DNA of 64,000 bases, from NCBI GenBank assembly GCA_964474705.1, contig CAYYUI010000002.1, positions 5 to 64,004 on the forward strand. Reading direction: 5' to 3'. The notes under the pieces were generated by a model, which saw only the letters and a list, made by a program, of their open reading frames with translations, was not told the DNA's origin and did no database searches. The DNA is from an uncultured bacterium (GTDB lineage Bacteria > Muiribacteriota > Ozemobacteria > Ozemobacterales > Ozemobacteraceae). The translations under genes and the position numbers were made by a program. Positions 7,207-26,163 of the stretch are shown one piece after another. Position 1 is the stretch's first letter. The number at the start of each line of letters is the position of its first letter.

Positions 7207-7286
7207 ATTAAAGAAACTCTGGTCATAAAAAGCTGTGACTTTGCCGATAAAAAATCTGAAATCCCGCTTTATTCAGGAGTCACATC

Positions 7287-8016: not shown

Positions 8017-8043
8017 AGTTCAGCTCCTTGTGAATCAGCCTTG

Positions 8044-9152: not shown

Positions 9153-9702
9153 CCGCTGGGTCAGGATAAGCCGGGCAGACGGTCAGGCAGGCTCCGCAGC
9201 CGGAACATTTTTCCGGTGCGATGACTGCGGCATGGCCTGTTTCAGGAATAACGACTGCAACCGGATTTGCCGGGCATTTGTCGATACAGGCCCGGCATGG
9301 TTCGCCGCTGCTGCGCAGGCAGTTGCCTGGCTTGATGCCGGCAATGCCGATTTTATGTAACCGGTCGGAATTTTTGATCGACAGTGCGCCGCTCTGACAG
9401 GCTTCAATACATGGAAAAGCTTCACAGAACCGGCACCAGGCCTCGCCGCTGCGCAATGCCGGGGTGCCAAGATCGAATTCGTTGCTCATCGTTACCGGCT
9501 TCAGAGCAAAATGCGGGCAGGCTTTAATGCAGGCACCGCAGCGTCGGCATTTTTCGAGGAATTCTTTTTCGGGGCAGGCACCAGGCGGGCGCACCAGTTC
9601 TGGAAACCTGGCGGCAAAACTGCTCAATTCTTCGTCGAAGGCGGTGTCGATGCCTTCGAGAAGATCGAGAAGATAGTCTTTGAAAAAGCGCTTTCGGTCC
9701 AT
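9133..9702 (-). CDS. 4Fe-4S ferredoxin-type multi-cluster protein
   Basis: Four Cys clusters of CxxCxxCxxxCP type (CRRCGACIKACP, CRFCEAFPCIEAC, CRACIDKCP, CSGCGACLTVCP). Confidence 0.75.
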   Translation of the reverse strand: MDRKRFFKDYLLDLLEGIDTAFDEELSSFAARFPELVRPPGACPEKEFLEKCRRCGACIKACPHFALKPVTMSNEFDLGTPALRSGEAWCRFCEAFPCIEACQSGALSIKNSDRLHKIGIAGIKPGNCLRSSGEPCRACIDKCPANPVAVVIPETGHAAVIAPEKCSGCGACLTVCPAYPDPAVILRPL

Positions 9703-9704
9703 TG

Positions 9705-10553
9705 CTATGGCTTCACTGAACGCTGCCGTTCGGTCAGCAGTTCGATGAGTGTTTTGATTTCAGCCTCATCAGGCTGCCAGCGCCACAGCCACTGGTAGTT
9801 GCCATCGCGGTCGACTTCAATCAAGTATGAGGTGCCGTCCATACCGATTTTACTGACCTGATTGCCAAGGCTTTTAAATTCGGCCGAAGAAACGGTATCG
9901 ATCAATCTTTGCAGGTCGTTGTCGCTGAAAGTGAAAGTTGCGATGCCGTTATTCTGGTGTGTACCGGGGAAAATTCTGCCGATGCCGGTTTTCAGGTTAA
10001 CTTCATACGCCGCTGCTACTATACCCATCGGTTGAATGACGAGACGCAGACTATCTCCGGCAATTGGAAGCCAGTTGTGTTTTCTGGCGTAGTCAGCAAT
10101 GAACGCCAGGCTTGCCGATTGAATTCCGGCAGGAATTTTCGGAAAAATAACCGGCGGTTCGTCATTGTTATCGTTAGTCGAAAAGTTCGGTTTGGCGAAA
10201 GTGGCAATACTTCCCCAATAAGCTTTGCTGAAATTGCCGTTCTGTTGTTTCAGAAAAAAAACGCCGGTATCGCCGATTTTGAGACGCGGGTCAAAATCTT
10301 TGATGCCGCCGCGGGTGCTCAAGGTAAGCCTGATAACCGGGCTGGCTATTTCGCCTTTGATCACTGAATGGACTCTGATGGAAAGATCGTCGAGATTGGC
10401 ATTGTTTTGTTCGGCAACTTCGATTACTTCCCCGAGAATGATCGCGTCTGAGCAGTCTGGCAGCTCACGCAGAGGCAACCGGGCAATGCTCGAAGCGCAG
10501 GCGGGAAGGGCGATCAGGATTGTACAGACCAGCAACAGAATTAACTTTGGCAT
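9705..10553 (-). CDS. secreted hypothetical protein
   Basis: 282 aa. N-terminal signal peptide (LILLLVCTILIALPACASS). Its stop is 2 nt from the downstream ferredoxin start, so the two are probably cotranscribed. Confidence 0.55.
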   Translation of the reverse strand: MPKLILLLVCTILIALPACASSIARLPLRELPDCSDAIILGEVIEVAEQNNANLDDLSIRVHSVIKGEIASPVIRLTLSTRGGIKDFDPRLKIGDTGVFFLKQQNGNFSKAYWGSIATFAKPNFSTNDNNDEPPVIFPKIPAGIQSASLAFIADYARKHNWLPIAGDSLRLVIQPMGIVAAAYEVNLKTGIGRIFPGTHQNNGIATFTFSDNDLQRLIDTVSSAEFKSLGNQVSKIGMDGTSYLIEVDRDGNYQWLWRWQPDEAEIKTLIELLTERQRSVKP

Positions 10554-10735: not shown

Positions 10736-10896
10736 GATTGAATCAAGGCATTCATCCACCCATTTGTACCCTGTGCAAAATTGCTGCAGGCTGATAGTTG
10801 TCTGAATGCCGGCACTCGGGAAGCATCTTTTCCCACGGTGGCTCGGGCCGTTTTCCGGGCGCAGAGTATGAAGTAAAACTGGAAAGGGGACAAGTA

Positions 10897-12717
10897 GTGA
10901 AAAAAATTATTGCGTTACTGGCTATGGTCGTTCTGATCAGTGGAGGGGCTTTTGCAGGTGAGATAGCTCTCGATGGTCAGGGTTGTGGTCTGAAGGTCGT
11001 CTCTCAGAAGGCGGCAGGCAGCAAACTGAATTTGCGCATGAAATGCGCCATTGACAAGCTCTATACCTACGATGCCGAAACACCCAAGGGTGATTTCACC
11101 GTTCTTTATTCGCCCAATTTTTATTTTGGCGGCGAATACGGCGCTCCGCAGCTGCCGGTAATCAATAAGCTCATTCAGGTTCCTTTTGGTGCCAATCTCA
11201 AAATCGAAGTCAAGAGCTACGACACCCGTGAATACAATCTGGCTGATTTCGGCGTTTCGGCTCCGGTTTTCCCCCGCCAGCCATCTGCCCCAAAAGACGG
11301 TTCAGAAGTTCCGTTTGTTTATGAAAAGTCAGCTTACATCAGCAAGGGTTTCAATGGCGTTCAGATGACCTCTATTCAGGATGCCGGCGTAATGCGCCAT
11401 ATGCGCCTTGCCAACCTGACCATCGCTCCGGTTAAATATGATGCCACCTCGAACAAGATCGTTGTGTACAACAACATCGATTTCGAAGTTGTCATGACCG
11501 ATGCCGATATGGACACCACCAAAGCCAAGCATGACGCCCTCTGGTCACCCGCTTTCGCCTGGATGGAAAGAATGGTTACTGTTCCTAACGCTCTCAAATA
11601 TGGCAAAAGAGCCAACAAACAGGGCTATGTAATCGTTTCTGACCCGGCCTTCAAGAAAGAAATCGAAACCTTCGCCGCCTATAAAACCGAAAAAGGTTAT
11701 GCCGTTAAAGTCGTTTATACCGACCAGTTCGGCACTGGCGCAGCAATCACCAATAACCTCAAGACCTATCTGCATGGCCTTTACAACAACCCGACTGCCG
11801 ATTTCCCGGCTCCGAGCTATGTATTGTTCGTCGGCGACCACGAACAGGTTCCGGCTTTCAAAGGCCAGACCGGTTCACACATCACCGAACTTTATTATGT
11901 AGCAGTTACCCCGGGCGATTTCCTCCCCGAAATGCTCACCGGCCGCTTCTCGGCTAAAACCGTCGATCAGCTGATTCCGCAGATCGAAAAGACCATGGAA
12001 TACGAAAAATTCCAGATGCCTGATCCTTCCTTCCTCGACGACGCAGTTCTGGTCGCCGGCTGGGATGGCAGCTGGGCAAGAAGCCATGGCTGGCCCCACA
12101 TCAATTATGCTACCAAGTATTTCTTCAACAAGGAACACGGTTTCAAGAACCTCTATGTTTCTCTGTCAGCCGGTTCGCAGATGAATACCGCCGCAATCCT
12201 GGCTGCTGTAGCCAAAGGCGTTTCATACGTCAACTACACCGCTCACGGTTCAGCAACTTCATGGGCTGACCCCAGCTTCAGCATCAGCAATATCGAAAAG
12301 CTCGGCAACAAAGGCAAATATCCGCTCGTCGTCGGCAACTGCTGTCTGACCAGCAAGTTCGAAACTCCGACCTGCTTTGCCGAAGCATGGCTGAGAACCA
12401 AAGATGCCGGCGCTATCGGTTACATCGGCGGCACCAACAGCACCTACTGGGATGAAGATTTCTGGTGGGGCGTAGGTCTGCACTCAATCGTTAAACCGAA
12501 CAATGACGGCGTTCCTCCGCTGAAGGAAAACACCGGCGTCGGCGCTCTCGACGCCCTGTTCGAAACCAACGGTGGCATCAGCAATGCCGGTTTCATGGTT
12601 GCCGGTAACCTGGCCGTCGAAGCCTCTACATCCAGCCGCAAACAGTACTACTGGGAAGTCTATCACCTCATGGGTGACCCCTCTCTCGTAACTTTTGTCG
12701 GTCATCCCAAAAAATGA
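10897..12717 (+). CDS. secreted cysteine peptidase, family C25 (gingipain-like)
   Basis: Signal peptide VKKIIALLAMVVLISGGAFAG after a GGAAAGGGGA SD. Catalytic His and Cys motifs typical of C25 (YVNYTAHGS...; VVGNCCLTSKF), plus YVLFVGDHEQVP. The track's start at 10798 lies upstream of the RBS. Confidence 0.75.
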   Translation: MKKIIALLAMVVLISGGAFAGEIALDGQGCGLKVVSQKAAGSKLNLRMKCAIDKLYTYDAETPKGDFTVLYSPNFYFGGEYGAPQLPVINKLIQVPFGANLKIEVKSYDTREYNLADFGVSAPVFPRQPSAPKDGSEVPFVYEKSAYISKGFNGVQMTSIQDAGVMRHMRLANLTIAPVKYDATSNKIVVYNNIDFEVVMTDADMDTTKAKHDALWSPAFAWMERMVTVPNALKYGKRANKQGYVIVSDPAFKKEIETFAAYKTEKGYAVKVVYTDQFGTGAAITNNLKTYLHGLYNNPTADFPAPSYVLFVGDHEQVPAFKGQTGSHITELYYVAVTPGDFLPEMLTGRFSAKTVDQLIPQIEKTMEYEKFQMPDPSFLDDAVLVAGWDGSWARSHGWPHINYATKYFFNKEHGFKNLYVSLSAGSQMNTAAILAAVAKGVSYVNYTAHGSATSWADPSFSISNIEKLGNKGKYPLVVGNCCLTSKFETPTCFAEAWLRTKDAGAIGYIGGTNSTYWDEDFWWGVGLHSIVKPNNDGVPPLKENTGVGALDALFETNGGISNAGFMVAGNLAVEASTSSRKQYYWEVYHLMGDPSLVTFVGHPKK

Positions 12718-14505: not shown

Positions 14506-15099
14506 TTATCGGCACCTTTGCGGCGTAGCAGGGAGATCTTCGAGTTGTTGCAATGCCTGCCGCAGCAGAGGGTCTGAAACAAGTTCCGCCTCATCGATAT
14601 TCAGTTTTGCAGCCAGTGCGGCAAGCAAACATTGGTAAAGCTGTTGGTGGGTAAGCGTCTGCATGCTGGGCTCTGCGCTCATATTACGAAGAACCGTTCT
14701 GGTTATTGTCGAGAATCGTGAATTGGCAAAGGTCAGAGCCAGGCCGCCGATTACCAGGCTGATTGCAATGAAGATGGCGAGGGTGATCAGGTCTTCTTTC
14801 GAATGGATGACCCAGGCGGCGGGAGCGGCAATCAACGTGGTGATCATTAGCAAAAGGTTCTGGGTTCGAAGAGACTTCTGCCTGTTGGTGATTATGGCGT
14901 TTACTGCGCTTTGCAATGCAGGATTGCCTTGAAAATCAGGGGCCGGAGTATCGTTCGGGTTATCTGCATCCGGTGAAGAAGCAGGATCACAAATGTCGAA
15001 GTCTCTGATGCAGTAAGGGCATCTGAGCAAGGTTCCGGTCATGTTATCAGGGACCGTAGTTTCTTTACCGCAAAACTGGCATTTTATCAGCCCTCTCAT
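14506..15099 (-). CDS. membrane protein with N-terminal zinc-ribbon
   Basis: N-terminal CQFCGKETTV...LRCPYCIRDF, then a Pro/Asp-rich linker and two TM helices. Confidence 0.5.
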   Translation of the reverse strand: MRGLIKCQFCGKETTVPDNMTGTLLRCPYCIRDFDICDPASSPDADNPNDTPAPDFQGNPALQSAVNAIITNRQKSLRTQNLLLMITTLIAAPAAWVIHSKEDLITLAIFIAISLVIGGLALTFANSRFSTITRTVLRNMSAEPSMQTLTHQQLYQCLLAALAAKLNIDEAELVSDPLLRQALQQLEDLPATPQRCR

Positions 15100-15423
15100 T
15101 TATTTTCTCCTGAAATCATTATACACGATCTATGCGCCATAATGGCTGTCGGCAAGCAGCGATTATGCCACAAAAACCTTGCTTGTTATGATAAGAATCG
15201 GTTTTAATGTTAGCGCTCAATAAACAGCTTCTTACAATTTTTTGCCAGCCAGGGCTTCTGCCTGAATCAAGCTTCAACAAAGGGGTTTTTATGGCGCGGA
15301 AAAGAGTCAATGACGGAACAGATCGCAACCGCCCGCTGCCGGCCGCGGCACCTACAGATATTGCGCGAGAGTGGTCTTGCCCAGGTAGAAGCATAGCTTG
15401 AAATCAACAGGCGGTTTAGGAAG

Positions 15424-16059
15424 ATGGGAGAAAATATGACAAGAAAAGTTCTGTTTTTTTTGCTGTGTATCGTGACCGGAAGTGTTGCATCTTCTGCAAA
15501 CCCGGCCAGTCGCGCCGAAATGATAAAAAAATATGGCCCGGTTCCTTCTGCCATACTTGAACCATCTGAACGAAGCGACATAACTTCGTTTTATTCAATA
15601 TGTTGGACGGTCATGGAAAAACTGGGAAAGGCAAAGGTCCATCATCAGTACCGGGATAAAACATGCTTTGCCTGTCAGCGGGTATTGAAGGGTGCCATTG
15701 ATTTATATAATCAAGAACACGCTTCACCCGGACAACAGATCGGCAAAATCGACCACAAGGATGTCGTGGATGCAGACAATTCTCTCTACACCCAGAAATA
15801 TTTGAAGAGCGTTCCGCTGATGGCAGATTCAAAATGCCGGATGCACAGTTACGGAGATCTGGCAACAGATGGGATTATTTACTGCGAATATCACGGAACT
15901 GATCCGATGGTGGCAAAAGAACTTCGCGCCCTCAGTGGCTACACTCTAGCTTCCGAAATTCAGCTGCGCAGGCAAATTCTGATCGTCGTTGGAATATTGT
16001 TAGCGGTATTTCTGATGCTGTTCAGCTATTTTCGCGCCCGGGCCAATCGCGTGCAGTAA
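15424..16059 (+). CDS. secreted Cys-containing protein with C-terminal TM anchor
   Basis: Signal peptide (VLFFLLCIVTGSVASSA). C-terminal hydrophobic helix ILIVVGILLAVFLMLFSYF. Confidence 0.5.
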   Translation: MGENMTRKVLFFLLCIVTGSVASSANPASRAEMIKKYGPVPSAILEPSERSDITSFYSICWTVMEKLGKAKVHHQYRDKTCFACQRVLKGAIDLYNQEHASPGQQIGKIDHKDVVDADNSLYTQKYLKSVPLMADSKCRMHSYGDLATDGIIYCEYHGTDPMVAKELRALSGYTLASEIQLRRQILIVVGILLAVFLMLFSYFRARANRVQ

Positions 16060-16307
16060 TGAGCCTCTGAAGCCAGCCATTTCGGCTCGATAGCAGCTGA
16101 AAATCGAATTGAATTTTGTCTGGCCTATAACACATCTACGTTCCAGACTGAAAAATGTAAGCGAAACTTATGAGGAAAATGCCGGGACGTTTCGTTTAGA
16201 ATCAACAGCATGATTCAAAATAATTCGATAAATCAGTCAAAACAAAGTTCATTCTAAATTAACTGCAGAATTGTTCTAAATCAATGTGCGAAGCAACAGA
16301 AGGCATC

Positions 16308-16358
16308 GAAATTAAATGATTAATCATGAATTTTAATTTGCATTGAATGAAATTAAAT
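16308..16358. repeat. 10-bp direct repeat GAAATTAAAT x2 flanking the palindrome ATTAATCATGAATTTTAAT, in an AT-rich promoter region
   Basis: Read directly: copies at 16308..16317 and 16349..16358. A further direct repeat TTCTAAAT x2 lies at 16252..16259 and 16273..16280. Confidence 0.5.
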
Positions 16359-16392
16359 TGTCATTTTGAAGAGTATGCCGGAGGAATTTGTT

Positions 16393-18882
16393 ATGGAAAA
16401 CTGGATCTTTTTGGGAATGTCTCCCGCTATTTTTGCTTCTTACCAAAAGCTTTATCGAAAAATGACTGCAAAAAATGAATTTGCCAGGCCTGATTCCCCG
16501 CAAATTAAATGCTTTAAAGCCTGCTTTCTTATGTGTATTTTTATTTTGATATCGTCTGCAAGCTTCTGTGAATATGCTGATTTTTCAAATTGGCATTTTC
16601 CAAGCCCGCCGCAACAAAGCATAGCCTGGAACCCTGGCGCAACGAATTTGTCTAATGAAGTGATTCTTGCCATGCGACAATTGTTTGAACTTGGTCTGGC
16701 CGACCCGCGCGGCTGTGAATACAAAACGGTTCAGGTAGAAACAGGCAGCGTATGGGCGCATTGCCCAATTATGATCACTACCAGAGGTTGGGTTCTTCCA
16801 GAATCGCCAAATTCAAAATGTTCTGAAAAATGGGTGATCTGCTGGAATGGGCTTTTGTATCCTGTGGCCTCAATGGGACCTTCGATAGACCTGGCTGCAG
16901 ACGTAGAAGAAATGCTGCAAAAGTCCATTGACTTGCCCGAAGATCGCAGAGACATAAGCGTTACCGGAAACATGAATACGGGAGTGACCACAAGATACCG
17001 TGACTTTAGATGTCATTCCATTCCCGAAAAATACGCCATCGATTACCATTTTTTAACACCATTGAAGGCGTTTCTTGTTTACCGGGCTGGTCATGAGAGT
17101 TTGGCGGAAAGAATGTGGCGAGAATATTATCGGTCATGTGATAACGTCGATGAATACCCATTGCTTCCAGTAATCATGGAATGGGTATGGTATCAGTGGG
17201 ATCGGGCAGTCTGTGCACATATGCGCGCCGATGATCGAATTGCATTGCTTACAGCCAGAAAGCTTCTACCAACTCTTAAGGTTGATGAAAGCGGCTGGAA
17301 AGATTGTCGACTTCCAAACTGGCGATTTGGCGGCGGATTGGATTGTTTTTCCAATCCCCGGTTTCTGACATTTGCAACTGGTTGTTCAATGCTTTTAATA
17401 GATCATGAAAGAAGATTGTGGGAAAAAACCATGAAGAATTTCTGGCATGCCGATCTGTGGAAAAAGATCAGCCAGAGTCTTAATCTTCCTTTGGGTGAAA
17501 CAGAACACTCTGAAGTTAAAACGCTGATCAAAAACCTTGAAAATGCACAGATCTGCCAAAGTGGACAACCGGGCTGGCTTGAGTTCGATCAGGCCGAAAC
17601 GGTTAGAAAATTGTCCGAAATTGGTGATGACGCAGTGGAGCCTCTGTTGCAAAGTCTTGAGACTGATGATCGCCTCTCCAGATCAGTATCATTCGGTCGC
17701 GACTTTCATTTCGATCGTAGTTTTTTACCAGTTTCAAGTCTTATTGATTACATCTTAAGTAGAATTTTAAGAACAAATCATAAGTTTCAAAAAGGCAGCA
17801 CAAAGCCTACCAGAAAAGAATATGTAGCCGCGATTCGTTCATACTGGCAGAAATTTAGAAATTGCTCAGTTCCCGAAAGAAGTTTCATAATACTGCAGGA
17901 TGACCATGCTTCAATAGGACAATGGGTAGAAAGTGCAAACGTTTTAACCAAAAGCGTCGATCAGGAGTTAGTTCCAAAAGGCTTTGGCTGGCAGACTGTT
18001 TATCAACCAAAGCCAGGACAACTGCCACCAATGACCGGCGAAAAATTTCGCACTGGTGTGACACCTACTCTGACAGAATTGCTTGAAAAAAGAAGTCAGC
18101 AACTTGCAACGATTATTCAAAATGGGGCTGAAAACCGTTATTCGGCAGAAGAAGCCTATCCCACCATTCTTTACGACAGATGCAAATGGGAACCGGAAAA
18201 AGTATCGCAGATTCTTGATGAATATGCTTCGACAACAAAAAACACAAGAGAAGCATGGGAACCAAACTCTGATTTCTGTCGAAAACTGAACTATATTTTT
18301 GAGATTAGCAAATTGGCCTGGAGAGCAGGCTATGAAGACGGCATTATCTGGACCGTTTCATACATTAGTTCGTTAAAATTTCATCCTGAACTGGCTGAAA
18401 CTATTACTGAGTTTTTTTCAAGCTGCGTTAAATCTAATATTGCAGAAAAATTTCTGAGGGAATCTATTGAAACAGGTAATAACCAATGGTCAGAATATTT
18501 TCGAGCCGATATCTGTCGCGACCTTAGTGTCTGGAGTAATTATTCCCGCTTAATGGTGGGACTATTTTCTCCTTTTTTCAGATATTGGCGTAGCTTATTC
18601 AGCATTTCCAAAATTGCTGGCCATATCAAGCCTCAATTTCTCCCCAGAACTTTTTATCGCGCCGAGGTTTCAATCGGTGAAAATCTAATTTATGTAAAAC
18701 GATATCAGGGCGATGATATTTTCTGGCCTAAGGAAGACACCACCGTCGAGTTCTCTATTGGCGATCTGCTTTGTCAGCTTGTGTGCGAACTTACTTACAC
18801 AGCAAAATTTAGAGTTTTTTGGCCTCAGCCCGTAAAGGAATTTGCAAGAAAACGTTGCTTTGATATCTGGTTTTGGGAATAA
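16393..18882 (+). CDS. large Trp/Cys-rich hypothetical protein with N-terminal signal/TM segment, encoded in a low-GC island
   Basis: Long ORF with GGAGGAA SD 8 nt before the ATG at 16393. GC content is visibly lower than in the flanks. One HEAT-like segment (AVEPLLQSLETDDRLSRSVSFG). No family recognised. Confidence 0.6.
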   Translation: MENWIFLGMSPAIFASYQKLYRKMTAKNEFARPDSPQIKCFKACFLMCIFILISSASFCEYADFSNWHFPSPPQQSIAWNPGATNLSNEVILAMRQLFELGLADPRGCEYKTVQVETGSVWAHCPIMITTRGWVLPESPNSKCSEKWVICWNGLLYPVASMGPSIDLAADVEEMLQKSIDLPEDRRDISVTGNMNTGVTTRYRDFRCHSIPEKYAIDYHFLTPLKAFLVYRAGHESLAERMWREYYRSCDNVDEYPLLPVIMEWVWYQWDRAVCAHMRADDRIALLTARKLLPTLKVDESGWKDCRLPNWRFGGGLDCFSNPRFLTFATGCSMLLIDHERRLWEKTMKNFWHADLWKKISQSLNLPLGETEHSEVKTLIKNLENAQICQSGQPGWLEFDQAETVRKLSEIGDDAVEPLLQSLETDDRLSRSVSFGRDFHFDRSFLPVSSLIDYILSRILRTNHKFQKGSTKPTRKEYVAAIRSYWQKFRNCSVPERSFIILQDDHASIGQWVESANVLTKSVDQELVPKGFGWQTVYQPKPGQLPPMTGEKFRTGVTPTLTELLEKRSQQLATIIQNGAENRYSAEEAYPTILYDRCKWEPEKVSQILDEYASTTKNTREAWEPNSDFCRKLNYIFEISKLAWRAGYEDGIIWTVSYISSLKFHPELAETITEFFSSCVKSNIAEKFLRESIETGNNQWSEYFRADICRDLSVWSNYSRLMVGLFSPFFRYWRSLFSISKIAGHIKPQFLPRTFYRAEVSIGENLIYVKRYQGDDIFWPKEDTTVEFSIGDLLCQLVCELTYTAKFRVFWPQPVKEFARKRCFDIWFWE

Positions 18883-19103
18883 CTCTAGAAAGCTGTTTGG
18901 GCCAAATACCAAAAAAAATGATATTAGAATTTGACGACTGTTACCAATTCTTTGAAAAAAATCGGAGCAAAGGAATTTCGTTCAGGGAAGATTGAAAGAA
19001 TAAAAAAATGTTCATATGGATTTTGGAAACGTACCTACAATGACTATTCATAGAAAAGAGAGAAAGAGCATGATGATGGAATGGTTCTACAATTTGATCA
19101 GCA

Positions 19104-19541
19104 ATGCAGGAGGATACTGTGATTAAAATACTGCTCCTAATTCTAATGGCGCTGCCTTGGCCGGCTAATGCAGAACCTGCGTCCGGTACGATTGCAGCCT
19201 CAGGATCTCAGACGATTGAACTTTCGATGCCTATGCTTCAGCAGGAGGGACCAGTGGTTAAATTTGTGATGAAAAAAATGCGGGTGCCTCATTGCAAACG
19301 GGGCCCACAGCGCTGTGAAATCTGCCGGATCGGGAATGTCGCGAAATGGTGTCTGCTCGACGTTGACCCGCCGGATCAGGACAGGGTGCAGCGCCCGGTA
19401 TTGGAATTCGTCTGTCAGGGCGAGCGTCTGATAAGGGTTTTTGATGTGCTGAAAAGTTTTGTTTCCAAGGAAGAGGCAGAAAAATTTCTTTCTGTGTCTG
19501 ATTATCCAGGTTTGATCTGGGATTCCGCTGAAGACAAATGA
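19104..19541 (+). CDS. secreted hypothetical protein
   Basis: Signal peptide ILLLILMALPWPANA. AGGAGGA SD precedes a GTG at 19119, which may be the true start. Confidence 0.45.
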   Translation: MQEDTVIKILLLILMALPWPANAEPASGTIAASGSQTIELSMPMLQQEGPVVKFVMKKMRVPHCKRGPQRCEICRIGNVAKWCLLDVDPPDQDRVQRPVLEFVCQGERLIRVFDVLKSFVSKEEAEKFLSVSDYPGLIWDSAEDK

Positions 19542-20378: not shown

Positions 20379-23267
20379 TCAGGCGGAAGGGTGGGTGGTA
20401 ATGGCGGCGACAGTGAGGTCGCAGTCGGAAGGGAACCCGGCCTGGGTGTACAGGCTCGTGAAGGTGGCGAGAAAGGCTTCGGCAGAAATGGCGGCTGAAG
20501 TCTGCAACAGGGCGTTGCCGCCCGCCCCTGAAACGACGAAATCTGCTGCGGGGGCATAGGTTGCCAGTATCAGAGCACAACCATCGTTGAGGTTGATGTG
20601 CAGTCCGGCTATCTTTTGCCCGTGGCCGGCCAGAGGCAGGGAAGGCATCGGCAGAAGGCGCACCGTGCCTGAGTTGCGGTCGATGAGAACCGGGTCGTTC
20701 ATCCCGGCATTGCTGATTTCCAGGCTGGTGTCGTCATGGCACAGTATATATTGCAGGCTGATTTCATGACCTTCTCGACCGGCATTGCTTCGCTGCAGCA
20801 GTTCGTTGAGCTCTTCCATGAAGCGTGCCGGCTGGTCGGTCAGGTCATGAAGCTGCATGGCAGCTGACTTGAGAAAAGCCAGCAGCAGGCAGCGGCTTAT
20901 GCCGGTGCCGCCGACGTTGCCCAGCAGCAGGGCGGGTCGATTGGCAGCGGTGCTGATCAATTCAAAATAGTCGCCACCATTTCCGGCCAGCGACAGGGTT
21001 TTGCCATAAATGCCCAGCCTGCCGGCCAGAAGCGGCTGAGCCATTCTGGTCATCAGCTTTTCCTGAACGATAGAAGCAACGTGCATTTCTTCGAGATCGC
21101 CGAGAATTTCGTTGAAAATACCAGCCAGAGAGCCGAATTCATCGCGGCCCAGGTCTGGCAGGCGATAGGAAAAATTGCGCTTCTGCAGCTCGCCGATGCC
21201 GGTTTGCAGCTCTGACAGCGGCAGTAAAATCCCTGATGACACCTTGAGCCCCAGGGAAACTGAGATTAACAGGCTGACCAGAGCCAGCAGCCAGATCATT
21301 CGACGTTTGGAGCCTATTTGGCTCTCTATCTGCCCGAGCGGATAGAGGGAAAACAGCCTGATAGTCGGCATATGTACGCATTTGTGGCCGGCGAGCATGA
21401 AGTTTTCGTTGTCTATGACACAGAATTCAGGACGGGTGAGAGTTCTGTTTCTGAGTTTGCCGGCGAATTCAGCAAGACGGGCATTCGCGAGCGTTTCCGG
21501 GGGAAAGGCAGTGCTGAACAGATCGTCGGCGGCCATGACTCTGATGCCGTCTTCATTGCGGTTCAGAGCGTGAAAGATGCGCCTGATGAATTCGAGTTCG
21601 AGTTTGCGGCTGTCCCAGACGTAGAGCATGATGTAGTCGAGCAGAGCCGGGTCGAACAGCGAGAAGGTCTCGATGTAGGTCGGGTGTCTGACCTGCCCGA
21701 TGCCCCAATGCCAGAAAGTGCCGCTCTCGTAAAACCTTCGGATCAGCTCGGCAGGCTTTTTCTGCATCAAGCCATCGGAAATGAATTCGACCTCGGCTCC
21801 CTGCTTTCCAGAAATCGGTGTTTTGTTGATGCTCGCCATGATAAATGTCGTCAGCTTGAAAATGGCATTCATGACGTTGGTTTTGACCGGTGAGGTTTTC
21901 AGGCGGCTGTCGAAGGCTTCCTGAATGACACCGTTTTTCATGATTCCGGTATCGCCGGCAATGATCCCGGTGCTGCTCGCTGCGATGAACAACATGTCCG
22001 GGCCAGGGCGTTGCGGGGTGACAAAATTACTGATCGTCTGCCGGTTTACGAGGTTATGCTGCAGGGCGGAGCGCAATTCGGGCAGAGCTCTGGTTATTCG
22101 GCCCTTCTGGACGCTGTATTCATTGTTGAAAAGCTCATCGATGTTCTGCATGCAGGTCATGCTGCGGTTGAACGCCCGGTTCAGCAGGCCGGCGCGGAGT
22201 TGTTGCAGATAGTCACTTCCTGAGACCAGCAGCAGAAAGCCGGGCAGAATGTTTGCGACCACAAAAAGCAGCACCAGCTGAGTTCGTAGGCCGAGCGAAA
22301 GTCTGACGCCGCCAGCCATTACCCGATAGCTCAAAACCGCATAATATACCAGGCATAGATGCAGAAAAACCATTATCAGTCTGGTGAATCCATCGCTGGC
22401 CGGCATGTCGATACTGCTTTTTCTGACGGCGCAGAAACCGGTGAGGCTTTCGTTGATGAAGTTGGTAAAAATGTAGTAATTGGGCAAATCCTGGCAGTCG
22501 CTGAAGCGATGCCGCATGGCCGCTAATCTCGTTTGCAGACTTGCGGCCAGTTCCGGGTCAGCGCAATAAGCCCGGTGGTCGGTCATATAGCCCGAATGCA
22601 GGTCACCACGATATGAATCTAGCATTTTGTCAAGCCCGGGTGTTCGTTTCAGCAGGCCGTAATCGAAGAACACCGCGAGGCCGAAGCGTTCGTCGACTTT
22701 CAGCCAGGTCAGCGGGTATTTCTGGGCCGAATCTGGCCTGATGAGGCTGAGTTCACGCCCTGAATAACAATTGCGGAAGAAAAGCGGAAAAAAGTGTGGC
22801 CCGAAAATCTGCCGCAGGTTTTTCATGACTTCCGGGGGGATATTTTTCTCGTAGTTCTGATAAAACCAGTCGGCAATGCGGCGAAGCTCAAGATAGGCCT
22901 GTTGCCAGTTTCCTGGATTCTGCCGCCAGGAAAAATTGGCCTGATAAATCTCCCCGGATGGCTGCCAGATCAGATAGCGCATTTTCAGCCGGTGCTGTTT
23001 CCCATAGTCGTCGATGGCAGTTCTGAGAGCGGCGCTATTCTGGCTTTCTCTGAAAATTGCATCGAGACTGCTGCAGGTATATTTTTCCGTATCAGCTAGA
23101 GCCCGCATCGTTGCCAGCATTTCATCGGCAGCCGCGGCAAAATTTCTGAAGCGTGTCTCGCGGTCGAGCGTCGCCAGATAATAACCGCCCGCCCAGAAGA
23201 TCAGCAGAGGCAGAAGAACGGTTGCGCCGGCAAGCCTGAGCCAGGCGGTAATGTTTCTGTCAGGCAT
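20379..23267 (-). CDS. membrane sensor phosphatase: periplasmic domain, HAMP, PP2C (SpoIIE/RsbU-type)
   Basis: N-terminal TM, a ~290-aa extracytoplasmic region, a second TM and a HAMP-like linker (LSELQTGIGELQKRNFSYRLPDLGRDEFGSLAGIFNEIL). The C-terminal PP2C domain has GGDYFELI...GNVGGTGIS and a C-terminal DG motif. Confidence 0.8.
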   Translation of the reverse strand: MPDRNITAWLRLAGATVLLPLLIFWAGGYYLATLDRETRFRNFAAAADEMLATMRALADTEKYTCSSLDAIFRESQNSAALRTAIDDYGKQHRLKMRYLIWQPSGEIYQANFSWRQNPGNWQQAYLELRRIADWFYQNYEKNIPPEVMKNLRQIFGPHFFPLFFRNCYSGRELSLIRPDSAQKYPLTWLKVDERFGLAVFFDYGLLKRTPGLDKMLDSYRGDLHSGYMTDHRAYCADPELAASLQTRLAAMRHRFSDCQDLPNYYIFTNFINESLTGFCAVRKSSIDMPASDGFTRLIMVFLHLCLVYYAVLSYRVMAGGVRLSLGLRTQLVLLFVVANILPGFLLLVSGSDYLQQLRAGLLNRAFNRSMTCMQNIDELFNNEYSVQKGRITRALPELRSALQHNLVNRQTISNFVTPQRPGPDMLFIAASSTGIIAGDTGIMKNGVIQEAFDSRLKTSPVKTNVMNAIFKLTTFIMASINKTPISGKQGAEVEFISDGLMQKKPAELIRRFYESGTFWHWGIGQVRHPTYIETFSLFDPALLDYIMLYVWDSRKLELEFIRRIFHALNRNEDGIRVMAADDLFSTAFPPETLANARLAEFAGKLRNRTLTRPEFCVIDNENFMLAGHKCVHMPTIRLFSLYPLGQIESQIGSKRRMIWLLALVSLLISVSLGLKVSSGILLPLSELQTGIGELQKRNFSYRLPDLGRDEFGSLAGIFNEILGDLEEMHVASIVQEKLMTRMAQPLLAGRLGIYGKTLSLAGNGGDYFELISTAANRPALLLGNVGGTGISRCLLLAFLKSAAMQLHDLTDQPARFMEELNELLQRSNAGREGHEISLQYILCHDDTSLEISNAGMNDPVLIDRNSGTVRLLPMPSLPLAGHGQKIAGLHINLNDGCALILATYAPAADFVVSGAGGNALLQTSAAISAEAFLATFTSLYTQAGFPSDCDLTVAAITTHPSA

Positions 23268-26163
23268 CTGAACTGTCCTCCATGCGCAGCATCAGGAAAG
23301 TCAGATCGTCGTCGCGCCTGTCGGTCCAGGCCTTGTGACCTTCGAGAATCCTGCTCCAGTAGGTTTCGAGATCGGCGTGCCAGGCATCGGCAACCATTTT
23401 GAGAAACCTCGGGTAACCCAGCATTTCGCCTGATGGTGCCATTGCCTCGACAATTCCATCGGTATAGAGAATAAGCGTGGCGCCTGGAAGCAGGGCCAGG
23501 GTTTGTTCGACGGCCCGGTTCTTCGTTGAGCTCCCGAGCGGAAACCCATGAATTTCAATGAGTCGGGGGGCATTGCCGCCAGGCCCGATCATTACCGGGT
23601 AGCAATGCCCGGCATTGGCGATTTTGAATGCGCCGCTGCTGCAGTCGAAATCAAGGCACTGAGCGGTCATCATGCGTCGCCAGTCTTTCTTTTTCAATTC
23701 GTTCAGCACGCAGCTGCCACGGTGCAGCACTTCCGCTGGTCCGGGAAAGTCTCTGGAAACGCCTGCAATCATGGCTTTCATCATCGCCATGATCATCGCT
23801 GCCGGAATGCCGTGCCCGGCAACGTCTCCGAAGAAAATTGCCATTCTGTCGTTTGGCAGATCAAAGTAATCATAATAGTCACCACCCATTTTGCTCATAA
23901 ACAGGGAGCGCGCAAAAAGGCTGATCTTGCCGCGGCAGTGATGTTCCGGTGGTAAAAGACTGACTTGAACCGCAGTGCCGACTGCGAGCTCACGCATACC
24001 TTCGACGGTGGTGTTGAAAGCTTCGGTCAGCCGGCCAAGCTCATCGTTGCTTAACGAAGGAACGCGGATAGAATAATCACGTTTTCTCACCTTTTCTATA
24101 CCGGTTGCCAGAGATTCAACCGGTGCCAGCAGCCTGTGTGAAAACAGTATGACCGTCTGCCTGAGGATGATGACGACCAGCAGAAAACCTATACCGATTG
24201 CAAGTTTCAGTCTGAAGATCTGTTGCTCGATTATGGCTTCGGGGTAGAGTGCGACGAGAACTCCCATGCCGATTTCGTTGCCGGCAATCGAGGTGAAGAG
24301 ATAGTTCTTTCCGTCGAGGGCAACGCGTTCGCCGGCAATCATTTTTCGACTGCGGGTCAGGCGCATTAATCTGTTGATCTGCGGGTTGTTGATCTGTGTC
24401 GTCGAGAAAATCTTTTCAGAGTCATTGTCCATGACCGCAAGAATTCGTGGTTTAACCTCTTCAGAGGCTTGTGTGAGACTTGCGCTGATAAAATCTCTTA
24501 GAAAAGTGGCTCTTTCCCATGACAGGAGGAGAATACCCCAGATTTGCCCCTGTTGCTGGGCTCCGGTGAATTTCACGTAAGTCAGGCGTTCACTGTTGCC
24601 GCTGCTCATGAGCGAAAAACGGTCGACGGCCCCGAGGAAGAAATACAGTGATTTGTCGATACTCGAAACCTGTTCCAGTATCGAGGATTGCCCCTTTTTG
24701 CCGGCAGTTTCACCTTTACCTCCGAAGAATAGCAGGGCGTTCTGCATCAGAGAAAGTCCCATCTTCGAGGCACGGTTCGTCGTCTTGGCCATGTAGAAAG
24801 TGTAATTGCCCTCTGGTTCGGCCAGACCGCCTTCTTCCGGGCCTATTTCTGCGACCAGAGCCTGCAGGGCTTCTATTTCCGCATCAGGCCAACGTTTGCC
24901 GCCATATTTTTTGTTTCGTGCATCGATAAAAGCATTCAGACGATCTGCCAGAACCGCTGAGGTCTCCGGAAACCTGACGTCGAATTCCTTTAAAATGCGC
25001 AGGGATTCCTGGTGGGCGGCGTTGAAAAGTTCATCGCGTTTTTCATGAAAGAACTCGTAGCCGGCCGAAATCATCAGCCCAAGGGGCAGACCATTCGAGA
25101 AGATGAAGAGCAGCAACATTTTCTGGCGCACCGAAAGACACCATTCCGGGTGGCGCAGCAGATAGCAGTGCCAGACAAATAATGCCAGCATCAGCGCGAT
25201 GCTTATTCTTCCCAGCATGCGGGCCGAAAGATTATGAGGATCTGGTAAAAAAGTTGCCGGAAGGTAACTGATTAGAATCAGATCAGGAGAAGCCTGCCGG
25301 ATATTGAGCAGATAGTTCCGGCTTTGCCGCTGCGATTGCCCATCTGCCTCGTATTTTTTTACTTCCAGCATGATTTCGGACTGATGGGTGGTTGCAGCAG
25401 GCATGCCGAAACCTTGATAGGAAAGAGTCTTTACAAAAGCGAGGCGTTCAGGTTCAGCGGTTGCGGCTGCCTGTCGAACCATCGATTTTGGGCCGAGATG
25501 CCTGCCGGTCAGGGCAGCATCGAGAAAGCAGGCAAGCGAAAAATTGCTGCCCGGGTAATACCAGAGCAATTTTTGACCTGGTTCGAGGCTGACTGAGAGA
25601 CATTTTCCTTTGGCGCCGGGGCGCAGCGGCTCAAAAAGCTGGTTTTCGAAGAGAAACTGGCCGAAATAACCGCGCAACAGATTCATTTTTTCGACGATCT
25701 TCTGAATGTCGGCCGGATTGGCTGTTTCATCGACTTTAAAAGCATCTGCGAGCATGTGCATGACCTGAAACATGCTTTTCATGACAAACTGAAAACGTTT
25801 TTCGTCACTCAGATTTCTGTTGATGGAACCATCGCTGTTCCAGACGATGAATCTGATTCTGTCGGAAAAAAAACTGCGAACAGCGGCGACTTTCTCGATA
25901 AGTGCCTGCTCAGGGCCTGCCGACCTATCGGCGAGGGTGAAGTTTTTTTGCAGCAATGCATGAAAAAATGCCAGGTCATCATGGTATCTTGCAAAGCGGT
26001 CCAGCTTGATATTCAGGCGATAATGGGCATTTTCGACCGCCTGCTGATACGCGGCGCCAAAAGTTCCGGAAAGAAACAGCCACAAAAGATATAGTGGCAA
26101 AAGCAGCCCCAGCAGCAGCTGAGTAAGCTTGAATCCAATGATGCCGGCAAAGTTTCTGATCAA
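23260..26163 (-). CDS. membrane sensor phosphatase paralogue: periplasmic domain, HAMP, PP2C (SpoIIE/RsbU-type)
   Basis: Same architecture as the downstream gene: HAMP (LATGIEKVRKRDYSIRVPSLSNDELGRLTEAFNTTVEGM) and PP2C (GGDYYDYFDL...FFGDVAGHGIPAAM...YTDGIVEA). Overlaps the downstream paralogue by 8 nt. Confidence 0.8.
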   Translation of the reverse strand: MIRNFAGIIGFKLTQLLLGLLLPLYLLWLFLSGTFGAAYQQAVENAHYRLNIKLDRFARYHDDLAFFHALLQKNFTLADRSAGPEQALIEKVAAVRSFFSDRIRFIVWNSDGSINRNLSDEKRFQFVMKSMFQVMHMLADAFKVDETANPADIQKIVEKMNLLRGYFGQFLFENQLFEPLRPGAKGKCLSVSLEPGQKLLWYYPGSNFSLACFLDAALTGRHLGPKSMVRQAAATAEPERLAFVKTLSYQGFGMPAATTHQSEIMLEVKKYEADGQSQRQSRNYLLNIRQASPDLILISYLPATFLPDPHNLSARMLGRISIALMLALFVWHCYLLRHPEWCLSVRQKMLLLFIFSNGLPLGLMISAGYEFFHEKRDELFNAAHQESLRILKEFDVRFPETSAVLADRLNAFIDARNKKYGGKRWPDAEIEALQALVAEIGPEEGGLAEPEGNYTFYMAKTTNRASKMGLSLMQNALLFFGGKGETAGKKGQSSILEQVSSIDKSLYFFLGAVDRFSLMSSGNSERLTYVKFTGAQQQGQIWGILLLSWERATFLRDFISASLTQASEEVKPRILAVMDNDSEKIFSTTQINNPQINRLMRLTRSRKMIAGERVALDGKNYLFTSIAGNEIGMGVLVALYPEAIIEQQIFRLKLAIGIGFLLVVIILRQTVILFSHRLLAPVESLATGIEKVRKRDYSIRVPSLSNDELGRLTEAFNTTVEGMRELAVGTAVQVSLLPPEHHCRGKISLFARSLFMSKMGGDYYDYFDLPNDRMAIFFGDVAGHGIPAAMIMAMMKAMIAGVSRDFPGPAEVLHRGSCVLNELKKKDWRRMMTAQCLDFDCSSGAFKIANAGHCYPVMIGPGGNAPRLIEIHGFPLGSSTKNRAVEQTLALLPGATLILYTDGIVEAMAPSGEMLGYPRFLKMVADAWHADLETYWSRILEGHKAWTDRRDDDLTFLMLRMEDSSDA

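What the first reader, a model, noticed from the sequence alone, without database searches (positions are those of the whole stretch)
16060..19100. Low-GC island carrying a single 830-aa Trp/Cys-rich secreted protein of unknown family
Between two ordinary GC-rich genes the composition drops sharply. It is AT-rich in the intergenic parts and about 40% GC in the coding part by eye. The island encodes one long ORF (16393..18882) with a good SD and an N-terminal hydrophobic segment. Trp is unusually abundant, with many Cys and no motif I can place except one HEAT-like turn. Atypical composition together with a single large orphan gene is the signature of horizontally acquired cargo, such as a toxin, adhesin or defence protein.
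Basis: partly seen in the sequence, partly recalled or inferred. Interest (0 to 1): 0.55.

Follow-up and report, generated by a model that had tools for sequence, protein, structure and literature searches.

The report
Recently acquired gene for unknown exported protein
A 3.9-kb piece of foreign, AT-rich DNA recently inserted into the chromosome of an uncultured Riflebacteria bacterium carries a gene for an exported protein from a large, multi-phylum family that no database has yet named and whose function is unknown.

Summary
Window 16060-19100 has 40.7% GC against 51.1% for the window, and it is the lowest 3-kb stretch. The 829-aa ORF (16393-18882) has GC3 0.38 against 0.58±0.04 for 37 other genes (z=-4.9), 3.7% Trp and 2.8% Cys.

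Horizontal acquisition is supported. A syntenic sister Riflebacteria contig (L095, ~81% nt identity over 21 kb) lacks window ~15132-19054. A 94%-identical copy (dS 0.16, against 0.5-1.1 for core genes) lies at an unrelated locus in another Rifleibacterium-like genome. An 81%-aa copy lies at a third locus. Both of those sit in low-GC islets next to toxin-antitoxin pairs.

Two corrections. The insert also carries an orphan 211-aa gene (15424-16059). The large gene is not an orphan: it has at least 1293 homologue clusters in Planctomycetota, Verrucomicrobiota, Acidobacteriota, Armatimonadota and other phyla.

Pfam, NCBIfam, PADLOC and PHROGs give no match. The family is absent from the viral, plasmid and phage collections searched. 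AlphaFold gives a confident model: a signal/anchor helix, an N-terminal α/β domain with no PDB neighbour, an α-solenoid, and a small β/α domain.

Nothing supports a toxin or defence role. The function is unknown. My best guess is an extracytoplasmic protein that binds a specific ligand.

The parts
15132..19054 (.). Inserted segment (~3.9 kb) present in the window lineage and absent from the syntenic sister genome L095
   Evidence: blastn collinearity of window 12083-33256 with L095 at ~81% identity, except for this stretch, which corresponds to only ~77-225 bp in L095. Gene order comes and the junction alignment. The same junctions are present in independent assemblies L001 (100%) and L086 (99.93%).
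15424..16059 (+). Co-inserted 211-aa orphan gene. It has an N-terminal signal-like segment, a Cys-rich body and a C-terminal hydrophobic anchor. GC is 0.46 and GC3 0.47.
   Evidence: ORF and composition. There is no Pfam, PADLOC or PHROGs match. It is absent from L095. Its 90% cluster holds only two members, both from the window lineage. It is unrelated to the genes upstream of the family gene in L082 and L101.
16060..16392 (+). AT-rich 5' spacer (GC 0.35) with the Shine-Dalgarno GGAGGA at 16380-16385. Only its last ~37 nt are shared with the L082 copy.
   Evidence: The promoter-like matches here are no more numerous than in shuffled sequence.
16356..18905 (+). Cassette shared at 94% nt identity with a copy at an unrelated locus in another Rifleibacterium-like genome (L002/L082). 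The shared stretch is the ORF plus 37 nt upstream and 23 nt downstream.
   Evidence: blastn. Boundary alignments. tblastx shows that nothing else is shared.
16393..18882 (+). 829-aa ORF. It is a member of a large unnamed family of exported proteins and is under purifying selection.
   Evidence: dN/dS is 0.23 against L082 and 0.22 against L100. The AF2 model has pLDDT 82.6 and pTM 0.80.
16498..16566 (+). N-terminal hydrophobic helix (aa ~36-58). It is either a Sec signal peptide with a long n-region or a signal anchor.
   Evidence: Sequence and AF2 helix 36-54. 182 of 229 family members have an N-terminal hydrophobic 12-mer, with a median start at residue 7.
16576..17322 (+). Domain D1 (aa 62-310). 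It is an α/β domain that carries the motifs DPRGxEY, CWNGLxYP and FDRAVCAHMRxDD, and it has no structural neighbour in the PDB.
   Evidence: Domain model with pLDDT 87.7 and pTM 0.88. The best Foldseek PDB hit has E=1.0 and TM<0.2. Conservation.
17350..17967 (+). Domain D2 (aa 320-525). It is helical, with one HEAT-like turn (aa 401-432, nt 17593-17688) followed by a conserved β-hairpin motif, DxRL(T/S)RSVxFGRDF.
18025..18600 (+). Domain D3 (aa 545-736). It is an α-helical repeat (solenoid) region.
   Evidence: AF2 secondary structure. Foldseek gives only generic HEAT/ARM solenoid matches, with E~1e-2 and TM~0.23.
18613..18879 (+). Domain D4 (aa 741-829). It is a small four-stranded β-sheet followed by two helices.
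   Evidence: It shows a weak profile similarity to Sclerotium rolfsii lectin (E=0.025), which is only a lead.
18883..19054 (+). AT-rich 3' spacer (GC ~0.33) that ends the insert
14506..15099 (-). Left bounding core gene (197 aa, zinc-ribbon/TM), conserved in the empty-site genome
   Evidence: 56% aa identity to the L095 202-aa gene. Synteny.
19104..19541 (+). Right bounding core gene (145 aa, signal peptide), conserved in the empty-site genome and so not part of the insert
   Evidence: 64% aa identity to the L095 125-aa gene. Synteny.

Best explanation
SHOWN.
- The window is chromosomal DNA of a Candidatus Rifleibacterium-like organism in the candidate phylum Riflebacteria.
- A ~3.9-kb low-GC segment (~15132-19054) entered this lineage after it split from its closest sampled relative.
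- The segment brought in two genes. One is an orphan 211-aa gene. The other is an 829-aa gene that also occurs, 94% and ~80% identical, at two other unrelated loci in other Rifleibacterium-like genomes. There too it sits in low-GC islets, next to type II toxin-antitoxin pairs.
- The 829-aa protein belongs to a large family with no curated name, spread over Planctomycetota, Verrucomicrobiota, Lentisphaerota, Acidobacteriota, Armatimonadota/Abditibacteriota, Myxococcota and others.
- Family members start with Sec-type signal peptides.
- Members share a four-part architecture: a conserved α/β domain with no PDB neighbour, a helical domain with one HEAT-like turn, an α-solenoid, and a small β/α domain.
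- The gene evolves under purifying selection and keeps essentially all family-invariant residues, so it is probably functional.

INFERRED (about 0.4).
- The protein is exported. In this copy it probably stays tethered to the inner membrane by an uncleaved N-terminal anchor.
- It acts in the periplasm or at the cell surface by recognising one specific ligand, most plausibly an anionic polymer such as an acidic or sulfated glycan or an envelope component.
- Recognition would use the strongly conserved Arg/Trp/Tyr/His/Asp residues of D1-D2, with the solenoid acting as a platform.
- Whether it only binds the ligand or also cleaves it is open.
- The vehicle of transfer is unknown. No mobility gene or repeat is left. 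It could have been natural transformation with illegitimate recombination, or an unsampled low-GC mobile element.
For: Host identity. RecG is 80% identical to 'Ca. Rifleibacterium sp.'. HAMP-SpoIIE homologues are found only in Riflebacteria.

Insertion. L095 is collinear with the window over 21 kb at ~81% nt identity but lacks 15132-19054.

Foreign composition. GC3 is 0.38 against 0.58±0.04, z=-4.9, with the largest codon-usage distance in the window.

Recency.
- dS between the ORF copies in the window and L082 is 0.16. dS for seven Pfam-identified core genes between the window and L095 is 0.49-1.08.
- Identity with L082 stops 37 nt before the start codon and 23 nt after the stop codon.

Other hosts are Riflebacteria. 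The L082 amylase and AlkD and the L100 OTCase fall in ≥90% clusters that carry Rifleibacterium/Riflebacteria names.

Low-GC islets and TA neighbours. These are shown. A relative of the L082 host has a different accessory set, with a PemK TA and an IS-related HTH, upstream of the same TetR-amylase pair.

Not an assembly artefact. The junctions are identical in L001 and L086.

Family size and spread..

No curated family..

Export signal..

Structure..

Conservation. 82 positions are ≥90% conserved over 220 members, including ~15 Arg, 7 Trp, 8 Asp, Y110, Y156 and H276. The window copy retains essentially all of them; the few differences are conservative.

Selection. dN/dS is 0.22-0.23.
Against: - Only one empty-site genome was found, and more distant Riflebacteria have lost synteny here. 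The direction of the event (gain or loss) therefore rests on composition and dS, not on an outgroup.
- The insert has no integrase, transposase, tRNA gene or flanking repeats, so the mechanism of insertion is unknown.
- The source organism or element is unidentified. The Riflebacteria subfamily sits on its own long branch with no specific sister.
- Core-gene divergence between the window and the L082 host could not be measured, because no shared core genes were in hand.
- The functional part is inference only. There is no operon partner, no fold match, and no expression data.
- Conserved Arg/Asp/Trp could be structural (salt bridges, packing) rather than a ligand site. I could not map them on the model.
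- 'No known fold' is relative to the PDB via Foldseek only. AlphaFold DB and HHpred were not available.
- Export was judged by a hydrophobicity heuristic, not by a trained signal-peptide predictor.
Confidence: 0.7

Rival explanations
1. The genes are ancestral to this Riflebacteria clade. They were deleted in the L095 lineage, and the low GC reflects a gene-specific bias rather than foreign origin.
For: There is only one empty-site genome and no informative outgroup. No insertion scars or mobility genes are present. The family gene is slightly below the GC of its flanks in several hosts.
Against: - GC3 lies 4.9 sd below the host genes. Across 94 family genes the mean gene-minus-flank GC difference is +0.007, so low GC is not a family trait.
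- The ORF copies in the window and L082 differ by dS 0.16, while core genes of the much more syntenic L095 differ by 0.5-1.1.
- The three Riflebacteria copies lie at three unrelated loci.
- Nucleotide identity with L082 ends abruptly at the gene borders.
Confidence: 0.06
2. It is defence or toxin cargo: an anti-phage or antibacterial effector carried in a variable defence island.
For: The composition is atypical and the gene shows presence/absence variation. Type II TA modules lie directly beside the gene in L082 (RHH+ParE) and L100 (RHH+PIN). A weakly GIY-YIG-like gene sits upstream in L082.
Against: - PADLOC gives no match for the gene, the window neighbours, or ten island companions in L082, L100 and L101.
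- PHROGs gives no match.
- It is not found on viral contigs, phages or plasmids.
- Family members carry Sec signal peptides, so they act outside the cytoplasm.
- No known toxin domain is present and no conserved immunity-like partner exists. The census of 101 neighbours shows no defence or secretion-system association.
- The family is widespread as single chromosomal genes in large-genome soil and water bacteria.
Confidence: 0.07
3. It is a non-enzymatic periplasmic protein-protein scaffold or adaptor, a HEAT-like α-solenoid that organises other exported proteins, rather than a binder of a small or polymeric ligand.
For: About half of the protein is α-solenoid, and its only fold matches are karyopherin-, AP2- and catenin-type scaffolds. 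It has one HEAT-like motif. In ~9-10 Verrucomicrobiota loci the gene is divergently adjacent to an exported giant ankyrin-repeat protein, a classic protein-interaction module.
Against: - The fold matches are generic (TM~0.23, E~1e-2).
- The density of near-invariant polar and aromatic residues is unusual for a plain scaffold: 82 positions at ≥90% in a family with ~30% mean identity.
- The ankyrin association is confined to one phylum and may be plain synteny.
- No partner travels with the gene in Riflebacteria.
Confidence: 0.2
4. It is an assembly or binning artefact: a chimeric contig that joins low-GC DNA from another organism to a Riflebacteria chromosome.
For: All the data come from metagenome assemblies. 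The composition changes abruptly.
Against: The same 16.4-kb and 8.6-kb stretches, spanning both junctions, were assembled independently in Logan SRR8925823 (100%) and GCA_020047475.1 (99.93%, 6 mismatches). The flanks on both sides are syntenic with L095.
Confidence: 0.01

Closest known systems
HEAT / PBS-lyase-HEAT-like repeat α-solenoid proteins (Pfam HEAT_2 PF13646, HEAT_PBS PF03130; designed AlphaRep proteins; karyopherin-β-type solenoids)
   Same: One turn, (E/D)GDxAVEPLLxxLExD, matches the AlphaRep/PBS-HEAT consensus at E~0.01. The C-terminal half is an α-helical solenoid whose best PDB fold matches are karyopherin β2 and importin β.
   Different: - No Pfam HEAT model matches, even at E≤1. 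Genuine HEAT/TPR proteins in the same window score E 1e-49 to 1e-68.
- There is only a single recognisable repeat.
- Fold matches are weak (TM~0.23).
- The most conserved part (D1) is an α/β domain that resembles nothing in the PDB.
- The protein is exported.
Small genomic islets (integrase-less strain-specific indels acquired by HGT) in bacterial chromosomes
   Same: It has atypical GC and codon usage. It is present or absent between close relatives, with precise junctions between conserved core genes. Near-identical copies occur at other loci in related genomes, with toxin-antitoxin modules nearby.
   Different: It has none of the hallmarks of a classical genomic island: no tRNA target, integrase, direct repeats or IS element in the window copy. 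The vehicle is unknown.
PVC 'membrane-coat-like' proteins (β-propeller followed by α-solenoid); comparison from general knowledge, not tested against sequences
   Same: A β-containing N-terminal part is followed by a long α-solenoid, and the family is abundant in Planctomycetota and Verrucomicrobiota.
   Different: The N-terminal domain has only ~5-7 strands mixed with helices, so it is not a β-propeller. The family also occurs well outside the PVC group. Members carry signal peptides.
Fungal fruit-body lectin / Sclerotium rolfsii lectin fold
   Same: There is a weak profile match (E=0.025-0.037) between the family's C-terminal β/α domain and residues 16-112 of the lectin.
   Different: The match is below any significance threshold. 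Pfam FB_lectin finds nothing in 50 members. Foldseek with the full model does not recover it. It should be treated only as a lead towards a possible glycan-binding role.

Membership tests
Unnamed exported family defined here (alignments A1/A5; ≥1293 clusters at 50% identity) | Full-length homology with the motifs DPRGxEY, CWNGLxYP, FDRAVCAHMRxDD, QxGQPGG and DxRL(T/S)RSVxFGRDF, and the invariant residues G153, G233, R271, H276, R341, R427, R430, W511, R567 and W599 | tested here: met
   E-values reach 1e-84 to members outside the close subfamily. All invariant positions are retained.
Unnamed exported family defined here | N-terminal Sec-type signal peptide | tested here: inconclusive
   182 of 229 members have an N-terminal hydrophobic 12-mer starting around residue 7. 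In the window copy the hydrophobic helix lies at aa ~36-58, after a ~35-aa extension that is shared with its 80% relative. It may therefore be an uncleaved anchor. No trained predictor was available.
Pfam HEAT-repeat families (HEAT_2, HEAT_PBS, HEAT, HEAT_EZ) | Significant match to the repeat HMMs, normally in several tandem copies | tested here: not met
   No Pfam family matches at E≤1 for the protein, and none among 50 family members. Only a single-turn similarity to AlphaRep chains is seen, at E~0.01.
α-solenoid fold class | Stacked antiparallel helix pairs forming an extended superhelix | tested here: inconclusive
   The AF2 model shows ~25 helices between aa 212 and 736. Foldseek's best matches are solenoids with probability up to 0.99, but with E~1e-2 and TM~0.23. 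Coordinates could not be inspected.
Classical genomic island | Atypical base composition and codon usage | tested here: met
   GC is 0.407 against 0.511. The GC3 z-score is -4.9 and the codon-usage distance is the largest in the window.
Classical genomic island | Presence/absence polymorphism between close relatives at a conserved locus | tested here: met
   Empty site in L095.
Classical genomic island | Integrase, transposase or another mobility gene within or beside the island | tested here: not met
   The insert has only two ORFs, and neither matches any family. There are no mobility genes between MscS and TauE.
Classical genomic island | Insertion at a tRNA/tmRNA gene, with flanking direct repeats (att sites) | tested here: not met
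   The 64-kb window contains no tRNA or tmRNA gene. Only short repeats at chance level occur across 14900-19400.
Known anti-phage defence systems (PADLOC-DB v2) | Match of the protein or its neighbours to a defence-system model | tested here: not met
   There are no matches for the ORF or its two window neighbours, or for ten island companions in L082, L100 and L101.
Phage- or plasmid-borne cargo | Homologues on viral contigs, phage genomes or plasmids | tested here: not met
   No matches in IMG/VR, INPHARED phages, PLSDB plasmids, PHROGs or BFVD folds.
Polymorphic toxins / secreted effectors | A recognisable toxin domain, an adjacent immunity gene, and linkage to a secretion system | tested here: not met
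   No Pfam or NCBIfam domain is found. The downstream 145-aa gene is conserved in the empty-site genome, so it is not an immunity partner. The neighbour census shows no secretion-system genes.
Fungal fruit-body lectins | Significant sequence or fold match to the lectin β-sandwich | tested here: not met
   The only signal is E=0.025 in a PDB profile search. There is no Pfam match and no Foldseek match.

The most novel reading that the evidence does not exclude
The family is a previously unrecognised class of extracytoplasmic glycan- or envelope-polymer-active proteins, either a binding module or a new lyase/hydrolase type. Its N-terminal domain would be a new fold whose Arg/Trp/Tyr/His cluster forms the active site. 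In Riflebacteria it would circulate as a solo low-GC cassette on an unsampled mobile element that repeatedly lands next to toxin-antitoxin modules.
Probability: 0.2. Interest if true: 0.65.

Novelty: new variant of a known kind. Interest (0 to 1): 0.4.

Why it matters
This is a clean, datable case of recent gene flow within an uncultured candidate phylum (Riflebacteria). It has base-level junctions, an empty site, and three independent insertion loci.

More usefully, it flags a very large exported protein family (over 1,000 clusters at 50% identity, in at least seven phyla, often in several copies per genome). No curated database names this family. Its best-conserved domain is modelled with high confidence and has no neighbour among solved structures.

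Families of this size that remain uncharacterised are good targets for a new Pfam entry and for structural and functional work. If the Arg/Trp-rich site proves to bind or cleave a polymer, the family would add a new component to the cell-envelope or polysaccharide biology of Planctomycetota, Verrucomicrobiota, Acidobacteriota and their relatives.

The transfer event itself is ordinary biology.

Tried and rejected
1. Pfam, NCBIfam, PADLOC and PHROGs on the protein, its window neighbours and 50 family members gave nothing.

2. PDB sequence searches with the single sequence and with the profile gave only one HEAT-like turn and a sub-threshold lectin hit.

3. Foldseek of the whole model against the PDB gave only generic solenoids. 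Foldseek against BFVD gave nothing. Foldseek of D1 alone against the PDB gave nothing.

4. I looked for an empty site by scanning metagenome contigs with the flanking MscS protein. This returned only distant MscS loci. I then succeeded with orthologues of the HAMP-SpoIIE gene.

5. I first read L082 as a '44.5% GC donor lineage whose composition matches the gene'. I rejected this after per-gene analysis. The Rifleibacterium-type genes in L082 are 51-59% GC, and the family gene lies in a low-GC block there too.

6. Searches for att-like direct or inverted repeats at the insert borders found only short matches at chance level.

7. Promoter- and terminator-like sites are no more frequent than in shuffled sequence.

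8. Rfam and tRNA scans of the window found nothing.

9. Viral contigs, phage genomes and plasmids gave no family member.

10. A census of 101 neighbouring genes in 80 loci found no conserved partner apart from ankyrin-repeat proteins in Verrucomicrobiota.

11. An NJ tree to find a donor clade gave no specific sister. The subfamily sits on its own long branch.

12. Literature searches (the motif string, Rifleibacterium, Riflebacteria with HGT) found nothing on the family.


Full report
**1. The observation**

The composition drop is real and is the most extreme in the window.
- Region 16060-19100 has GC 0.407, against 0.511 for the whole window.
- Among all 3,041-bp windows (mean 0.512, sd 0.026) the minimum lies at 16101.
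- The ORF is 0.422 GC. The 5' spacer (16060-16392) is 0.348 and the 3' spacer 0.330.
- At third codon positions the ORF has GC3 0.38, against 0.583±0.042 for 37 other genes (z=-4.9).
- Its codon usage is the most deviant of all genes, although long genes normally deviate least.

The gene-level description also holds.
- The ORF 16393-18882 (829 aa) is there.
- GGAGGA lies at 16380-16385, 7 nt before the ATG.
- A hydrophobic helix spans about aa 36-58.
- Trp is 3.73% and Cys 2.77%.
- Pfam and NCBIfam give nothing, even at E≤1.
- The only sequence-level resemblance is one HEAT-like turn (aa ~401-432) to designed AlphaRep proteins, at E~0.01.

**2. Host and context**

RecG (49548-51644) is 80% identical to proteins labelled Candidatus Rifleibacterium sp.. 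The HAMP-SpoIIE gene next to the island has homologues only in Riflebacteria. The window is ordinary chromosome, with DnaE, RecG, RecN, MoeA, HydF and FabH.

The island lies between small conserved genes. On the left are MscS, a 97-aa gene and a 197-aa gene. On the right are a 145-aa gene, TauE and two HAMP-SpoIIE genes.

**3. Evidence for acquisition**

(a) Empty site.
- Contig L095 comes from a sister genome whose SpoIIE orthologue is 80% identical.
- It is collinear with window 12083-33256 at ~81% nt identity.
- Window 15132-19239 corresponds to only 225 bp in L095.
- The junction alignment places loss of homology after ~15131 and its return at ~19055.
- The 197-aa and 145-aa bounding genes have orthologues in L095 at 56% and 64% aa identity. 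The 211-aa gene (15424-16059) and the 829-aa gene do not.

(b) A near-identical copy elsewhere.
- L002/L082 carries the gene at 94% nt identity.
- The identity begins 37 nt before the ATG and ends 23 nt after the stop codon. Nothing else is shared.

(c) Timing (Nei-Gojobori dS).
- The ORF copies differ by dS 0.16 (window against L082) and 0.46 (window against L100).
- Seven Pfam-identified core genes between the window and L095 differ by dS 0.49-1.08.
- The copies are therefore younger than the split from the syntenic sister that lacks the insert.

(d) Who carries the other copies.
- The flanking α-amylase and AlkD of L082, and the OTCase of L100, fall in ≥90%-identity clusters with proteins named Ca. 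Rifleibacterium or Riflebacteria.
- The hosts of the other copies are therefore also Riflebacteria.
- I first took the 44.5% average GC of L082 to mean a compositionally matching donor. Per-gene values corrected this. Host-type genes in L082 are 0.49-0.59 GC.
- In L082 the family gene lies at the edge of a low-GC block (0.34-0.43) of at least 8 kb. The block holds unknown genes, runs to the contig end, and closes with an RHH+ParE pair.
- In L100 the gene lies in a ~4-kb low-GC islet with an RHH+PIN pair.
- A relative of the L082 host has a different accessory set (PemK TA, IS-type HTH) upstream of the same TetR-amylase pair.
- The gene thus looks foreign at three different loci in three Riflebacteria genomes. 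The ultimate source is unknown.

(e) Not an artefact. Both junctions are reproduced in independent assemblies, L001 at 100% over 16.4 kb and L086 at 99.93% over 8.6 kb.

(f) No trace of the mechanism.
- The window has no tRNA gene, no integrase or transposase, and no convincing flanking repeats.
- The family is absent from IMG/VR, phage genomes, plasmids and PHROGs.

**4. The protein is not an orphan**

One search found 293 homologues. Another found 1293 clusters at 50% identity (915 at E≤1e-10). All are unnamed and none has a Pfam domain. NCBIfam also gives no credible match: the only hit is one member at E=0.0034 to an unrelated FMN-reductase model.

The scan of GTDB species-representative genomes found 204 stretches encoding relatives. 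The hosts include Planctomycetota, Verrucomicrobiota, Lentisphaerota/Kiritimatiellota, Acidobacteriota, Armatimonadota/Abditibacteriota, Myxococcota and a Chlorogloeopsis strain. Some genomes hold more than one copy.

Low GC is not a family property. The gene-minus-flank GC difference averages +0.007 over 94 genes. The Riflebacteria copies plus L101 (43% aa identity) form their own long branch with no specific sister.

Most members begin with a classical Sec-type signal: 182 of 229 have a hydrophobic 12-mer, with a median start at residue 7. Trp-richness is a family trait (median 2.6%). The Cys content of the window copy is the family maximum (median 1.07%).

**5. Structure**

AlphaFold2 with a 50-sequence alignment gives pLDDT 82.6 and pTM 0.80. 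The model has these parts:
- an N-terminal helix (aa 36-54);
- D1, an α/β domain (aa ~62-310);
- D2, helical, with the HEAT-like turn and a β-hairpin (aa ~320-525);
- D3, a helical-repeat solenoid (aa ~545-736);
- D4, four strands plus two helices (aa ~741-829).

Foldseek against the PDB returns only generic HEAT/ARM solenoids, with E≥1.4e-2 and TM~0.23. D1 modelled alone (pLDDT 87.7, pTM 0.88) has no PDB neighbour at all; the best hit has E=1.0 and TM<0.2. BFVD also gives nothing.

Over 220 members, 82 positions are ≥90% conserved. They include ~15 Arg, 7 Trp, 8 Asp, Y110, Y156 and H276. The window copy keeps essentially all of them, and D1 to D4 are each covered in ~80-89% of members.

dN/dS of 0.22-0.23 shows purifying selection, somewhat weaker than on core genes, which range from 0.03 to 0.14.

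**6. Function**

No conserved operon partner exists. Among 101 immediate neighbours in 80 loci, the only recurrent family is a giant ankyrin-repeat protein. It too carries a signal peptide and is divergently adjacent in ~9-10 Verrucomicrobiota loci.

PADLOC finds nothing for the gene, the window neighbours, or ten island companions. No toxin domain, immunity partner or sorting tag was found.

From established knowledge, conserved Trp, Arg, Tyr and His in exported proteins are typical of carbohydrate or anionic-polymer recognition and of β-elimination lyases. The host phyla are polysaccharide specialists. A sub-threshold lectin similarity in D4 (E=0.025) points the same way.

My working model (about 0.4) is an extracytoplasmic, probably membrane-tethered, ligand-recognition protein for an anionic polymer. 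Catalysis is possible. A pure protein-protein scaffold is the main alternative (about 0.2). All of this is inference.

**7. Comparison with what is known**

The protein works like an exported α-solenoid. It fails the membership test for the Pfam HEAT families, while genuine HEAT/TPR proteins in the same window score E 1e-49 to 1e-68.

The insert behaves like an integrase-less genomic islet. It meets the composition and presence/absence criteria for a genomic island. It fails the tRNA, integrase and repeat criteria.

It is not a member of any known defence, toxin, phage or plasmid cargo family by the tests available.

**8. Verdict**

The 'orphan' label and the toxin/adhesin/defence guesses are not supported.

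The transfer itself is ordinary. The notable residue is a very large, unnamed, exported family whose core domain has no neighbour among solved structures. Interest is 0.4.

Noticed in passing
L032, L035, L036, L041, L044, L049, L050, L051, L053, L071 (upstream of the family gene, about 5300-9900 on the minus strand): In about ten loci, most labelled Verrucomicrobiota (two carry a doubtful 'Bifidobacteriaceae' label), the family gene is divergently adjacent to a giant (900-1500 aa) ankyrin-repeat protein. That protein itself starts with a signal peptide. This could be a functional partner or plain lineage synteny.
   Followed up: partly
L082:7807-8323 and L100:2015-2663: Type II toxin-antitoxin pairs lie directly beside the family gene in both other Riflebacteria hosts. 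L082 has RHH+ParE downstream and L100 has RHH+PIN upstream. A relative of the L082 host (L102) has a PemK pair and an IS-type HTH gene at the corresponding place.
   Followed up: partly
L082:4245-5000 (+): A 251-aa gene ends 7 bp before the called start (5007) of the family gene in L082. It has a faint resemblance to the GIY-YIG nuclease T4 endonuclease II (PDB 2wsh, E=0.04 over aa 17-126). It has no Pfam or PADLOC match. It belongs to a low-GC block (0.34-0.38) of unknown genes that runs to the contig end.
   Followed up: partly
window 15424-16059 (+): The co-inserted 211-aa gene has a signal-like N-terminus, many Cys and a C-terminal hydrophobic anchor. Its 90% cluster has only two members, both from this lineage. 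It matches no library. Its origin and its relation to the large gene are unknown.
   Followed up: partly
window 20379-26163 (-): Two tandem ~965-aa paralogues with HAMP and SpoIIE (PP2C phosphatase) domains have reading frames that overlap by 8 nt. Their homologues were found only in Riflebacteria.
   Followed up: no
window 51833-54220 (-) and 56486-58633 (+): Two large proteins combine many HEAT_2/PBS-HEAT repeats with TPR repeats (E down to 1e-68). They serve as a useful positive control, showing that genuine HEAT repeats are easily detected in this genome.
   Followed up: no
window 10798-12717 (+): A gingipain-type peptidase C25 with its propeptide domain (E 2.7e-62) lies near the island.
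   Followed up: no
L058 (NZ_FTNA01000011.1), L034, L050, L053: Some family members sit on contigs labelled Leptospira interrogans ATCC 43642, Clostridia or Bifidobacteriaceae. These labels are at odds with the rest of the distribution. They may reflect contamination or mis-binning, as L050 and L053 carry the Verrucomicrobiota-type ankyrin neighbour.
   Followed up: no
window 1-3000: A second, milder low-GC stretch (0.45-0.47 per kb) lies at the left end of the window. I did not examine it.
   Followed up: no
window 18613-18879 (aa 741-829): The C-terminal β/α domain gives a sub-threshold profile match to Sclerotium rolfsii lectin (E=0.025-0.037). Pfam and Foldseek do not confirm it.
   Followed up: partly
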